Shown here piece by piece: positions 28,992-33,285 of a stretch of DNA of 64,000 nucleotides. Source of the stretch: Octopus vulgaris (Eukaryota); NCBI GenBank assembly GCA_951406725.2, contig OX597822.1, forward strand, positions 10,540,001 through 10,604,000, in the 5' to 3' direction. The notes under the pieces are model-generated. The model worked only from the letters and a program-made list of their open reading frames with translations. It was not told the DNA's origin and made no database searches. The translations under genes and the position numbers were made by a program. Every line of letters starts with the position of its first letter. Within the stretch, counting starts at the first letter, position 1.

Positions 28992-29153
28992 CTTTATTTA
29001 AAGCAGCAGAAAATTCAACAAAAACTGTTACGGGAAACTCAGAGTAACAGTTTTGTTGAATTCTCTGCTGCTTTAAATAAAGCATATTACTCTACCACTG
29101 GTATTTGAGTACTCTTTTTTCCACCTTGTTTCACATTTATGTGTTTACTCCGG
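28992..29153 (+). mobile_element. Foldback PLE-terminal-repeat-like mini-element (family D), 3' half of HHR only
   Basis: Inverted short arm at 28992-29031; long arm GAAACTCAGAGTAACAG...AATAAAG...CCGG; (TA)n on both sides. Confidence 0.75.
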
Positions 29154-29944
29154 TATATACATAAATATATATTTATACATATTTATAATGGGAGAGAGAG
29201 AGAGAGAGAGAGAGAGAGAGAGAGAGAGAAAAGGAGAGATGAATATACATGCATTCATGCATATATACATTCATACATACTTGAAGAGGGCTTTAGATGG
29301 TGAGAGAAGGAAAGAGAAAGGAAGTGAGAAAGAGAGCAAGAAAAAGAGTGTCAGAGAAAAAGAAATACATAGAGAGAGGAAAGAGAAAGAGAGAGAAAAG
29401 GAGGAGAACGAGAAAGAAAGAGAGAATTGTATATTATTTTCATTTGTCTTTTAACTAAGCGTTCAGAGCGTGAATATTTCAAAAGGTACAAAAGGCTTTT
29501 ATATCAATGAGAAAAGAAGGTACAGATTTTAATAGATTTTTTACAGTGATTCCGACCATTATATGAATAATATATGAATATGTAAGACTGCGTATAACTG
29601 TTGTCAGAGTGAATAATAGAAGAGCGAATCAAAGGTCGATTATTACTATAGTTTATCATGTCCTACACGCACATACACACATATGCATATGTATGTATAG
29701 GCATATAAATGTTTGTGCATGTGTCTATATATATATATATATATATATATATATATATATATATATAACTCATATGCTTTTATATATTAACATATACATG
29801 CATACATACATATATATATATATATATATATATATATATATGCTTTTATATAGATAGAGAGATAGATAGATGGATAGATAGATAGACAGATAGATACCCA
29901 CATGCATACTAAGGTACGTCGTTTGCGTGAAAGTGCGTTTACGA

Positions 29945-30150
29945 TCATGCATTGATGATAATGATATTGTGGTTTCAATTCCTAGGCCGAGGGAAGCGCT
30001 ACATTCTTGAGCAGAGCACTTCATTGCACGTTGCTTCAATACACTCAGCTGGTAAAAATCAGTAATCCTGTGACGGACCGAGACCCAATTAGGTGGTGGG
30101 GATACCACAGAATCCAGGAAAATGGTTTATGGGCCGAGAAGGACCTTTGA
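29945..30150 (+). mobile_element. SINE family F, diverged
   Basis: GGTTTCAATTCC B box; TTCTTGAGCAGAGCACTT...CACTCAGCTGGTAAAAATCAGTAATCCTGTGACGGAC. Confidence 0.6.
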
Positions 30151-30485
30151 TCCCCATATTTTATGCATGTATGCATGTATGTATGTAGGTATGTATGTAT
30201 GTACGATTTCAAATGACATCTATCTGTCCATGTCTCACGCTCCCACTCTTCCTATCCCTCACATTACTATCTCCTCTCTCTCTCTCACTCTCTCGCTTAC
30301 TGATCGATAGTGTATATATACAGCCACAGTTTCCCTCCTGAATACTCATCAGAATGCATATAGTTAACATACGTACATGTGCGCGCGCAGCTTGTGTGTA
30401 TCTCTATGTATACACATACATATATAGATATATGTGTATGTATGTATATATGTATGTATGAATGTATATATATGTTGCATATATA

Positions 30486-30648
30486 GGCGCAGGCGTGGCT
30501 GTGTCGTAAGAAGCTTGCTTCCCAACCCCATAGTCCCGGGTTCAGTCCCGCTGCGTGTTACTTTGGGCGAGTGTTTTCTACTATAGCCTCGGGCCGACCA
30601 AAGCCTTGTGAGTGGGTATGATAGACTGAAACTGAAAGAAGCCCGTCA
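30486..30648 (+). mobile_element. SINE family A, 5' half ending in microsatellite
   Basis: GGCGCAGGCGTGGCTGTGTCGTAAG...GAAACTGAAAGAAGCCCGTC. Confidence 0.85.
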
Positions 30649-31434
30649 TATATACATGCATATATATATATATATATATATATATATATATATATATATA
30701 TATATATATATATATATATATATGTGTGTGTGTGTGTGTGTGTGTATATATATATATTTTATATATATATATATATATATATATATATATATATTATATT
30801 GTTATATTTCGGAATGGTCATTTTGAAAGTTTAGCCAATAAATCTTGCACAACAAATATTTAAACGTATATATTATATATATATATATATATATATATAT
30901 ATATATATATATATATATATTTATATATATGTATATATGTATCCTCTGATTGCTGTGGTCAATTTGATCAAGTGCAGTGTGCTAATGAATCCTGTTTATA
31001 CCAAAACCGGGTGGTGTCCACAGCTGTCCTCTTTTCTCCTTTCTTCCTTTATATAATGTCAGTTCTGAAGAATTCTCAGTTGAGAAGATTATCTACCTCT
31101 CTCATTTGCAGTTGGTTACAATGTGTAGAACTGCCGATACTTTTAACAAGTCAATAATTTAACTTGTTTGAAATCAATTGCTACTAGGTATCCATCGTGT
31201 TTGACTTGTTTTTTCTGATACTATCTCGCTGAAGTGCTATATTTTCAGACCCTGAAAGGATGAAAGTTTACCTGGACCTCGTCGTGATTTCAAATCTCAT
31301 ACATCTGCTGGTTCACTGTCCGATGAATTTAAGTTCAAGTTCTCTCGTCGTTAACGACTATCACAGAAGCGACCCAGCCGAAACTGAGTTCTTTTAGGCT
31401 ATCAATGCCAACAGTTATTACAATTACCAATATC

Positions 31435-31661
31435 TGTTTCTTTATTACCCACAAGGGGCTAAAAACAGAGGGGACAAACAAGGACAGACAAACGGATTAA
31501 GTCGATTACATCGACCCCAGTGCGTAACTGGTACTTAATTTATCGACCCCGAAAGGATGAAAGGCAAAGTCGACCTCGCCGGAATTTGAACTCAGAACAT
31601 AGCGGCAGACGAAATACGGTTAAACATTTCGTCCGGCGTGCTAACGATTCTGCCAGCTCGC
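31435..31661 (-). mobile_element. SINE family B with 14-bp TSD
   Basis: Flanked by CAATTACCAATATC at 31421-31434 and 31662-31675. Confidence 0.9.
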
Positions 31662-32535
31662 CAATTACCAATATCGTATTAAATGCAGTCTCTCAGACTG
31701 CTAGAAGTAGCATTCAAATTTCTTCCTGTAATACTCTACACTATACTCTATAATTCGATGTAGGTATCTATAAAAACAGACGGGATGTTCATAAAGGGAT
31801 TTACTTTAACGATTGGCCCAGTCGCCCACGGATCACATGAGAAGAAACAACATTTTCGCCATCACTACTGTTATTGCCGCTCTCACTATGTTGGTTACCA
31901 TCACTACTAAGACCACCAACATTTTATGACATTGCGTATGTACCCAGATATAAGGCTGATTACGCATGTTAATGCCATGATAATTAATGCATGATGATTA
32001 TATGATAATTATATTTATTCTCCACAGATACACACAGAGTCCATTAATGCTTTGATGTTAATGTATATTTTATCATGTTTCTCTATATGACAGGAAAAAA
32101 TATGATTATGTAAGTATGTGTGCGTGTATATATATATATATATATATATATATATATATATATATATATACACGCACACACAGAAAGAAAGAGAGCTAGA
32201 GAGCTAGATAGATAGGTAGAGAGAGAGAGAGAGAGAGAGAGAGAGGTAGATAGATAGATAGATAGATAGATAGATAGATAGATAGATAGATAGATAGATA
32301 GATAGATAGATATGGTTGGATGGATGGATGGATAGATAGATAGATAGATAGATAGATAGATAGATAGATAGATAGATAGATAGGTAGGTAGAGAGAGAGA
32401 GAGAGAGAGAGAGAGAAAGATAATGTTTGTTTTTGTGTGCAGTTATAATAAAAGCAATTTTATATTAATCTCAAGGGCTACTCAATACTTTTGTTGCGTA
32501 CAAAGGTATTATTCTTTAGCAATAATAATTTTGGC

Positions 32536-32616
32536 AGTGACTTCGAAGCTTCGGACAGCTATGCTTCCATCGGACGGTCCGATAACGGCTCAGTTAGCCG
32601 GAACTTCGAAGTCACT
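32536..32616. repeat. Old foldback with two degenerate head-to-head hammerhead motifs
   Basis: Axis at 32576 (ATCGGAC-G-GTCCGAT); arms read outward as GT-CCGAT(GG/AA)...G(AAG/GAA)-CTTCGAAG-TC-ACT. Confidence 0.55.
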
Positions 32617-32871
32617 CTCATTGAAATAATTGTGAAAGAATAATAGATAGATGCACTGAATTTCACATATAAATATCCGCATATACGTTCAATCCCTCTC
32701 TCTATACACACACACACACACACACACATATATCTATCTATATATATATATATATATATATATATATACCGGATAAACACATAAATGTGAAACAAGGTGG
32801 AAAAAAGAGTACTCAAATACCAGTGGTAGAGTAATATGCTTTATTTTAAGCAGCAGAAAATTCAACAAAAT

Positions 32872-32909
32872 CTGTTACTCTGAGTTTCTCGTTGCCGTTC
32901 ATCAGACAG
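32872..32909 (-). ncRNA. Minimal type I hammerhead ribozyme
   Basis: Minus strand: CTGT-CTGATGA-a CG gcaa CG a-GAAA-CTC a GAG-TA-ACAG; canonical core, stem I CTGT/ACAG. Confidence 0.8.
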
Positions 32910-32939
32910 TTTTTGCTAGAAAAAACTGTCTAGCAAAAA

Positions 32940-32977
32940 CTGTCTGATGAACGGCAACGAGAAACTCAGAGTAACAG
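32940..32977 (+). ncRNA. Minimal type I hammerhead ribozyme
   Basis: CTGT-CTGATGA-ACGGCAACGA-GAAA-CTCAGAG-TA-ACAG; predicted cleavage after GTA (32973). Confidence 0.8.
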
Positions 32978-33073
32978 ATTTTGTTGAATTTTCTGCTGCT
33001 TAAAATAAAGTATATATATATATATATATACGTTTATATATTTGTTATGCAAGATTTTTTATACATATATATA

Positions 33074-33285
33074 CTTTATTTAAAAGCAGCAGAAATATCA
33101 GAGTAACTCTTACTCAGAGTTTTCACCTCAGTTCTAACAAAACTGTCCGACGAACGGGAACGCGAAGCTCTGAGCAACAGTTCTTGTGATATTTCTGCTA
33201 CCTTTAAATAAAGCATATTATTCTACCTCTGCTATTTGAGTACTCTTTCTTTCCACCTTGTTTCACATTTATGTGCTTGTTGCGG
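33074..33285 (+). mobile_element. Family D foldback mini-element, diverged; HHR-like motif at 33143-33180
   Basis: Short inverted arm from 33074; CTGT-CCGACGA-ACGGGAACGC-GAAG-CTCTGAG-CA-ACAG; same tail as 29090-29153. Confidence 0.75.

What the first reader, a model, noticed from the sequence alone, without database searches (positions are those of the whole stretch)
28992..33285. Three separate insertions share the same short-arm breakpoint
Seen: in family D copies at 28992, 32769-33010 and 33074 the short inverted arm always stops at AATAAAG followed by target TATAT. The long arm continues AATAAAG-CATATT for about 60-70 bp and ends at CGG followed by TATA. The central junctions differ in every copy. 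Other foldbacks follow the same rule, with the short arm ending where the element has an internal TA-rich stretch (35710/35841, 39297/39456, 53979/54102, 55633/55815, 60674/60482). Established: PLE inverted termini with a 3' tail extension are known. Inference: two-sided target-primed reverse transcription, with the second primer annealing by (TA)n microhomology at a fixed internal site.
Basis: partly seen in the sequence, partly recalled or inferred. Interest (0 to 1): 0.7.

Follow-up and report, generated by a model that had tools for sequence, protein, structure and literature searches.

The report
Paired start sites of Penelope retrotransposon
These small DNA hairpins are stub insertions of a known kind of jumping gene, and they nearly always have one arm ending at a fixed short point and the other 71 bases further on, likely because the enzyme starts copying one RNA from both cut DNA strands at two preset spots; the pattern is largely known, but these copies turn it into a countable, testable rule.

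Summary
Family D is the 3' end of a Penelope-like retroelement (PLE) with Hydra-clade motifs: full copies carry a 725-aa RT + C-terminal GIY-YIG ORF, a hammerhead-like motif, and insert in (TA)n. Arm ends fall at two fixed points, S (AATAAAG|TATA) and L (CTCCGG|TATA, +71): 54 and 44 of 100 unselected arms; 4238 S ends vs 4231 continuing arms genome-wide. 74 of 77 inverted insertions pair S with L; none is S+S or L+L. This is the known PLE 'tail', matching two internal RT start sites shown in vitro for an anole PLE. Two-sided priming is supported: either arm can be longer, some arms do not overlap, and both share one haplotype. The microhomology step is only partly supported: S has a mismatch at the primer end, the perfectly paired register is used in at most 114 of 4352 ends, and better (TA)n runs go unused. 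Central junctions are not dispersed: 51 of 148 arm starts pile at -84..-78, the base of hammerhead stem I, likely the RNA's 5' end. New family of a known kind, with a useful mechanistic constraint.

The parts
28992..29031 (-). Family D copy 1, short arm (element positions -39 to S)
29030..29153 (+). Family D copy 1, long arm (-53 to L); tail 29083-29153, 71 nt
32769..32921 (-). Family D copy 2, long arm (-82 to L); tail 32769-32838, 70 nt
32922..32928 (+). 7-nt insert at the central junction of copy 2, a repeat of the element's own AAAACTG (inferred template switch while the two cDNA ends were joined)
   Evidence: sequence; gap 7
32929..33010 (+). Family D copy 2, short arm (-81 to S)
32935..32985 (+). 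Type I hammerhead-like motif (stem I, CTGATGA, short stem II, GAAA, palindromic ACTC-A-GAGT, GTA; predicted cut after 32973); mirrored in the long arm
   Evidence: sequence; same layout as Hydra-2_aMil in Craig et al. File S2; no Rfam hammerhead hit; activity untested
33074..33131 (-). Family D copy 3 (older subfamily), short arm ending at S; inner part rearranged
33132..33285 (+). Family D copy 3, long arm (-82 to L), about 85% identical to the young reference copy
56626..56755 (+).
35709..35913 (+). Family E foldback; short end at a perfect TATATATA in the element; no ORF found, PLE status by architecture only
39293..39545 (+). Family F foldback (core pattern 12,128 genomic matches); short/long rule; no ORF found
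53975..54170 (+). Family G foldback with hammerhead-like motif (6359 matches); 16 of 16 adjacent pairs have one short and one long end; no ORF found
55633..55915 (+). Family H foldback; short/long rule; no ORF found
60416..60674 (-). Family I foldback; 3' end of a second PLE with Hydra motifs (717-aa ORF, 45% identical to D; 3228 matches)

Best explanation
The hairpins are short insertions of a Penelope-like retroelement with Hydra-clade motifs, in which one arm ends at site S and the other at site L, 71 nt further on; most likely the element's protein nicks both strands of a (TA)n target and starts reverse transcription from both nicks on the same RNA, one at S and one at L. SHOWN: element identity, two fixed ends, S+L pairing, one haplotype in both arms, clustering of arm starts at -84..-78, short overlaps at the central junction. 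INFERRED: (1) S and L are reverse-transcription start sites positioned by the protein-RNA complex, with 1-8 bp of TA pairing only tuning the register; (2) two active sites, probably a dimer, handle the two nicks asymmetrically; (3) in most events both cDNAs run off the 5' end of an uncleaved RNA that begins at about -83, just before the hammerhead, often gain one untemplated base, and are joined head to head by end-joining at short palindromes such as CTAG; (4) longer or circular templates give the multi-kb and multi-unit versions with the same two ends.
For: Full copy L096: 725-aa ORF between an S end and an L end; AlphaFold model pLDDT 92.9, top three PDB matches are telomerase RTs; Hydra motifs present. 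Ends: 54 S, 44 L, 2 other of 100; 4238 vs 4231 genome-wide. Pairs: 74 of 77 S+L, 0 S+S, 0 L+L; 46 of 49 in the unselected set; 11 of 11 complete multi-kb two-arm insertions among 20 read-through loci; G 16 of 16, I 7 of 7 short and 8 of 8 long. Both sites are internal: 27 of 30 read-through loci continue TCTAACC into the 5' leader and ORF. Independent cDNAs: S arm longer in 30, L longer in 20, within 5 nt in 24; 7 L arms start at +15..+22. One template: opposite arms closer to each other than to any other insertion in 10 of 11 (0/3282, 1/3271, 0/2207 differences); diagnostic allele concordant in 51 of 52 scorable pairs. 5' wall: 51 of 148 starts in one 7-nt bin, 2 in the next bin upstream; G 16 of 32 at -67/-68, none beyond; solo arms starting at -83 in (TA)n carry G 7, C 4, A 2 against no such case at -80. 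Stutter of AAAT or ATT units at short ends of G and I fits re-priming. Frangieh et al. 2024 (PMC11167929, main text read): an anole PLE cleaves and extends both strands, starts at two internal sites not homologous to the target, the tail lies between them, and a dimer is predicted.
Against: No biochemistry on this element; all steps are read from finished insertions. Frangieh et al. saw no difference in start site between the two strands in vitro, which does not by itself predict strict S+L pairing. Arm identity could also come from two RNAs of one source locus or from gene conversion within palindromes. Overlapping arms from one RNA need strand displacement or re-use of the template, untested. 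The extra-G count is small (7 of 9 non-native, non-T cases, p 0.09), and many G's in two-arm copies can be read from the partner arm. The wall is blunter in family I. Stutter repeats could arise after insertion. Target-site duplications cannot be read in (TA)n. Arm starts are BLAST edges, good to about 2 nt.
Confidence: 0.68

Rival explanations
1. One reading: the long arm is primed first and the (TA)n end of the second strand finds the short site by annealing to a TA-like stretch of the RNA, as in L1 twin priming.
For: All six families have TA-like bases just 3' of the short end; E has a perfect TATATATA, I uses two registers within TATAGATA, H varies among TA registers. One D arm ends at the next 4-of-6 match (+19). 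7 of 74 D pairs have non-overlapping arms, the L1-like outcome (PMC11702581 passages).
Against: D: terminal mismatch in 4238 ends, the paired register in at most 114. Seven other positions in the leader match TATATA as well as S and are barely used; 13 perfect and 98 near-perfect sites in the unit are not used as ends in the long insertions examined. L is as fixed as S with 3 of 6 matches. L1 inversion points are variable and arms abut; here most arms overlap.
Confidence: 0.15
2. One cDNA folds back and copies itself (self-priming), and the endonuclease or a stop trims one end to give the tail (Arkhipova et al. 2013; Craig et al. 2021).
For: Many central junctions sit on palindromes (CTAG, ACTCAGAGT, TCATCAGATGA, AGCT); arm lengths correlate (Spearman 0.45); arms are near-identical. 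Proposed in PMC3846280 (passages) and PMC8557442 (passages).
Against: A self-copy must lie inside the first arm. In 30 of 74 pairs the tail-less S arm extends further 5' than the L arm, and in 7 the L arm holds none of the S arm's sequence, so neither arm can be the template of the other. 16 of 74 junctions carry inserts and 62 of 74 junction pairs are distinct.
Confidence: 0.08
3. The short foldbacks are a MITE-like or SINE-like unit that spreads with its ends already fixed, so S is inherited from a few master hairpins.
For: Some junctions recur (-80/-80 six times, -80/-82 and -82/-80 three times each); thousands of copies.
Against: 62 distinct junction pairs in 74; the same S and L ends flank insertions from 100 bp to over 13 kb, with intact ORFs; recurring junctions occur in both subfamilies; five other families obey the same rule.
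Confidence: 0.05
4. Two RNAs from the same source locus, one per subunit, are each copied once; the -83 wall is an exonuclease or structure stop at the base of hammerhead stem I and not a transcription start.
For: Explains overlapping arms without strand displacement; the wall coincides with the base of stem I in the fold of D and with the stem I edge in G.
Against: Gives no reason for strict S+L asymmetry; many source haplotypes were active (nearest other insertion 0.2-1.4% away), yet arms match. This rival changes steps 2-3 only and is compatible with the rest.
Confidence: 0.2

Closest known systems
Hydra clade of C-terminal EN+ Penelope-like elements, incl. Hydra-1_Obim (Craig et al. 2021, PMC8557442; section 11, passages and supplement part 2 read)
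   Same: [quoted passage not shown]
   Different: Unit 3356 bp (Hydra 'generally <3 kb'); tail 71 nt against the quoted 30-40; the hammerhead of Hydra-1_oBim differs in sequence from D, G and I, so these look like other families. The paper ascribes the tail to endonuclease resolution and gives no pairing counts in what I read.
Poseidon element of Anolis carolinensis, PAc (Frangieh et al. 2024, PMC11167929; parts 1-2 of 4 read; supplements searched)
   Same: Two internal start sites with the tail between them, no homology to the cut DNA needed, both strands extended, AT-rich target, hammerhead upstream, uncleaved RNA as main template.
   Different: Other clade; PAc sites lie inside the ORF start, here both lie upstream of it (L is 68 nt before the ATG); inverted products and S+L pairing are not addressed in what I read.
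L1 twin priming (described in PMC11702581, passages)
   Same: Both target strands prime on one RNA, inverted arms, end-joined central junction with microhomology.
   Different: L1's second site is variable and chosen by annealing, arms abut; here both sites are fixed and the arms mostly overlap.
PLE hammerheads and the circular-template proposal (Cervera and de la Pena 2014, PMC4209133, passages)
   Same: Minimal type I motif with palindromic helix III; more-than-unit tandems (here up to about 4 units in one arm).
   Different: Arm starts pile at the 5' edge of stem I (-83), not at the predicted cut (-37; 4 of 148); circles not shown here.

Membership tests
Penelope-like elements (EN+) | Telomerase-related RT in a single ORF | tested here: met
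   725-aa ORF with YRDD; model pLDDT 92.9, top three PDB matches are TERTs. Pfam gave no hit for D.
Penelope-like elements (EN+) | GIY-YIG endonuclease domain | tested here: met
   VVY...YTG motif in D, IIY...YVG in I; weak Pfam GIY-YIG hit for I only, E 0.014, below cut-off.
Penelope-like elements (EN+) | Partial tandems / pLTR, inverted 5'-truncated copy, one-sided tail | tested here: met
Penelope-like elements (EN+) | Target-site duplication | tested here: inconclusive
   Both ends lie in (TA)n, where a duplication cannot be read.
Hydra clade | C-terminal EN; RWK; DKT; CxCX5C linker; CxxC and CxH; no CCHH | tested here: met
   All found in D (L195 copy) and I; criteria. Some D copies have CNFK in place of CNCK.
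Hydra clade | Canonical hammerhead motif | tested here: met
   Motif and layout match listed Hydra hammerheads; Rfam found none; cleavage not testable.
Hydra clade | (TA)n insertion preference | tested here: met
   Nearly all of 100 arms abut TA repeats.
Hydra clade | Generally shorter than 3 kb (descriptive, not strict) | tested here: not met
   D unit 3356 bp; I unit about 2580 bp meets it.
Hydra clade | Placement in the RT phylogeny with named Hydra elements | not tested
L1-type twin priming | Second primer placed by annealing at a variable internal site; abutting arms | tested here: not met
   Fixed sites, mismatch register preferred; arms overlap in 67 of 74 pairs.
MITE / foldback DNA transposon | Symmetric terminal inverted repeats and a fixed unit | tested here: not met
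   Asymmetric ends, 62 distinct junctions in 74 pairs, continuous with RT-coding copies.
PLE status of families E, F, G, H | Linked RT/EN ORF | tested here: inconclusive
   tblastn of D and I proteins found no ORF in their fetched loci; architecture and, for G, a hammerhead-like motif only.

The most novel reading that the evidence does not exclude
PLE integration is an obligately two-ended, asymmetric reaction: one RNP loads both nicked target strands onto a single RNA at two preset sites, copies it twice in opposite directions up to a capped 5' end or round a circle, and seals the two cDNA ends together. The inverted repeat, the tail and the tandem would then be one mechanism, distinct from LINE TPRT and L1 twin priming, and the thousands of stubs map the transcription start.
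Probability: 0.45. Interest if true: 0.68.

Novelty: new member of a known kind. Interest (0 to 1): 0.46.

Why it matters
How PLEs form inverted repeats and tails is named as open in Craig et al. 2021 and left to unvalidated later steps in Frangieh et al. 2024. This genome gives thousands of young products with a strict rule (one S end, one L end, one haplotype, a 5' wall), an intact-looking 725-aa ORF and exact template coordinates, so the two-site model can be tested directly. It also warns annotators that these abundant hairpins are retroelement stubs, not MITEs or microRNA precursors. The basic structure is in print and this scan has met it in many other genomes, which limits the surprise.

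Tried and rejected
Rfam scans of the window and of one arm gave only microsatellite-driven microRNA matches and no hammerhead. Pfam found nothing for the D protein; sequence searches of PDB found nothing meaningful. Sequencing runs: no RNA holder listed; four contig-only runs laid on the leader cannot show starts, ends or strand, so the transcription start is untested. Hammerhead cut as the template's 5' end: rejected, 4 of 148 starts lie within 3 nt of -37. A splice acceptor (TTCTAG before stem I) as the wall: rejected for D, arms keep the TAG and no foreign exon is joined there in the loci held (that set is partly selected for this sequence). A-to-G hyper-edited arms as a single-molecule marker: none among 628 alignments. 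Leader fold is no more stable than shuffles (z -0.29). Local duplication of the three copies: rejected. Literature searches for a published two-ended or paired-end PLE model listed none beyond the papers cited; subscription papers such as Evgen'ev and Arkhipova 2005 and Arkhipova 2006 were not seen and may discuss it. bioRxiv supplements were not visible. Scan look-ups by sequence and by eight words returned nothing.
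Full report
Observation. The three copies are as described (alignments). Each has a short arm ending at AATAAAG beside TATAT and a long arm that continues CATATT for 70-72 nt to CGG beside TATA. Flanks differ, copy 3 is 87-90% identical to the others, and copies 1 and 2 carry different alleles, so they are separate insertions. A fourth, older single arm lies at 56626-56755. 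I number the element from the last G of AATAAAG (S = 0); the long end L is +71.

What the element is. A 21-nt core of the arm has 9562 exact matches in the 2.8-Gb genome, 0 for the reversed control. Locus L096 holds a full copy: an S end, a 725-aa ORF, and an inverted 119-nt arm with the L end. Pfam and PDB sequence searches fail, but a model built on 121 sequences has pLDDT 92.9 and its three best PDB matches are telomerase RTs. The protein has RWK, DKT, YRDD, CxCX5C, a C-terminal GIY-YIG-like motif without internal cysteines, CxxC and CxH, the features Craig et al. give for the Hydra clade. The arm holds a hammerhead-like motif laid out like Hydra-2_aMil, with a predicted cut at -37; Rfam does not detect it. 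In 27 of 30 read-through loci the sequence after L is TCTAACC, the 5' leader and the ATG 68 nt on, so S and L are both internal to the RNA. No tree with named Hydra proteins was built.

Ends. Of the first 100 arms on contig C1, taken with an anchor upstream of both sites, 54 end at or within a few bases of S (47 exactly G|TAT), 44 at L and 2 inside the tail. Genome-wide there are 4238 AAAG|TATATA ends and 4231 arms that continue. Of 77 inverted pairs, 74 are S+L and none is S+S or L+L; 46 of 49 in the unselected set, 15 of 15 and 11 of 11 in sets picked by one end, 2 of 2 in the window; the other three have one arm ending inside the tail or decayed. Among 20 loci picked for read-through, all 11 complete two-arm insertions are S+L, some with both arms longer than one unit; 2 have a broken arm, 6 are single-armed, 1 has a gap. 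Family G gives 16 of 16 and family I 7 of 7 short and 8 of 8 long pairs; I is a second element with Hydra motifs. E, F and H show the same short/long pattern in copies picked by similarity, without a linked ORF.

Is it two-sided priming? A fold-back copy must lie within the first arm. The tail-less S arm reaches more than 5 nt further 5' in 30 of 74 pairs, the L arm in 20, and in 7 pairs the L arm starts at +15..+22, so the arms share nothing. Neither arm can then be the template of the other, and two separate syntheses on RNA are the simple reading. The two arms come from one haplotype: in 10 of 11 long insertions they are closer to each other than to any other insertion, they share variants seen in no other of the 20 loci, and a diagnostic allele agrees in 51 of 52 scorable pairs (25 pairs not scorable). 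One RNA molecule is the likely cause; two RNAs from one locus or conversion between arms are not excluded. Short stutters at the S ends of G and I fit re-priming but could be later slippage. Frangieh et al. showed for an anole PLE that both strands are cut and extended, that synthesis starts at two internal sites not homologous to the target, and that the tail lies between them. That is the known explanation of the fixed breakpoint.

Is it microhomology? Only as a helper. At S the RNA reads CAUAUU, so a primer ending in TATA has four pairs behind a terminal A-C mismatch. The fully paired register 2 nt away would give GCATATA; it occurs 114 times against 4238, and 24 of 30 inspected are true short ends (two of the 26 scored short continue into the tail). 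L matches TATATA at 3 of 6. Seven other leader positions match as well as S, and the unit has 13 perfect and 98 near-perfect sites, none used as an end in the long insertions examined. So position is likely set by the complex and register tuned by pairing. In TA-like templates the exact junction is ambiguous, which inflates the apparent match; D is the clean case.

Central junctions. They differ (62 distinct of 74) but are not dispersed: 51 of 148 arm starts fall at -84..-78, 13 in the next bin inward, 2 in the next bin outward, and 4 near the predicted hammerhead cut. G has the same wall, 16 of 32 at -67/-68 and none beyond; I is blunter. In D the wall is the base of the extended hammerhead stem I and reads CCATTCT, an initiator-like word (recalled consensus). 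Single arms that start at -83 inside (TA)n carry G in 7, the native C in 4 and A in 2 cases; the same test at -80 finds none. This suggests run-off at a template end with an added base, perhaps from a cap, on small numbers (p 0.09). 53 of 74 junctions overlap by at least 1 nt, 42 by at least 2, and 16 carry inserts, as end-joining would give; no shuffled control was run for this. RNA data could not test the start site.

Comparison and novelty. Inverted truncated copies with a one-sided tail are standard for PLEs, Hydra elements are already listed for an octopus, and the two-site origin of the tail is shown. In eight searches I found no paper stating strict S+L pairing, one haplotype for both arms, or the wall before the hammerhead; older subscription papers were not seen. 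Unchecked notes of this scan reach similar readings in other genomes and in this one; they are not independent support. Papers seen: PMC11167929 parts 1-2 of 4 and a supplement search; PMC8557442 passages, section 11 and supplement part 2; PMC3846280, PMC4209133, PMC2377424, PMC13282606, PMC11702581, PMC12910113 passages; bioRxiv 10.64898/2026.07.22.740005 part 1 of 5.

Verdict. Real, genome-wide and mostly explained: a new family of a known kind. The strict pairing makes an open step of PLE integration directly testable. Interest 0.46.

Noticed in passing
G000:C1:57208865-57222567 (L288, L289): One family I insertion of about 13.7 kb with four-plus units in one arm (L end) and one-plus in the other (S end); the outer units of both arms share variants that fade towards the inner units of the long arm, which fits a multimeric template better than one clean circle.
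   Followed up: partly
L183, L184, L187, L192, L193, L197: All 6 single-arm tandem D insertions among the 20 read-through loci end at S; short solo arms end at S and L about equally.
   Followed up: no
L096 (G000:C3), L186: The ORF-bearing S arm stops at or just beside the upstream L site and the L arm is inverted there, as if one cDNA ran into the other primer on the same RNA.
   Followed up: partly
window 29089-29113 and 35870-35880: The tails of D and E share a small ACCACTGGT hairpin; 7 D long arms start at +15..+22 inside the D hairpin, a candidate protein-binding or stall site.
   Followed up: partly
window 32929-32934, 54036-54041, 60578-60585: D, G and I all have a YAG just 5' of hammerhead stem I, like a splice acceptor; in D. 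virilis Penelope an intron ends at that position. No spliced D copy seen.
   Followed up: partly
window 26107-26527 / 27132-27552 and 44621-45026 / 46031-46421: Inverted pairs of an abundant ~420-bp SINE-like repeat set in (TA)n; its look is recalled as an octopus SINE, which with the 2.8-Gb genome suggests an octopus host (recalled, not tested).
   Followed up: no
L292 (G000:C1:13118298 and 13124307); L170: Element plus flank duplicated 6 kb apart (L292) and a 490-bp local repeat holding a D arm (L170): local duplications exist but are rare in the sample.
   Followed up: no
protein search: 1223 unnamed relatives of the D protein at E <= 1e-20 among 7996 scored, so the Hydra-like group is far larger than the 27 families listed by Craig et al..
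   Followed up: no
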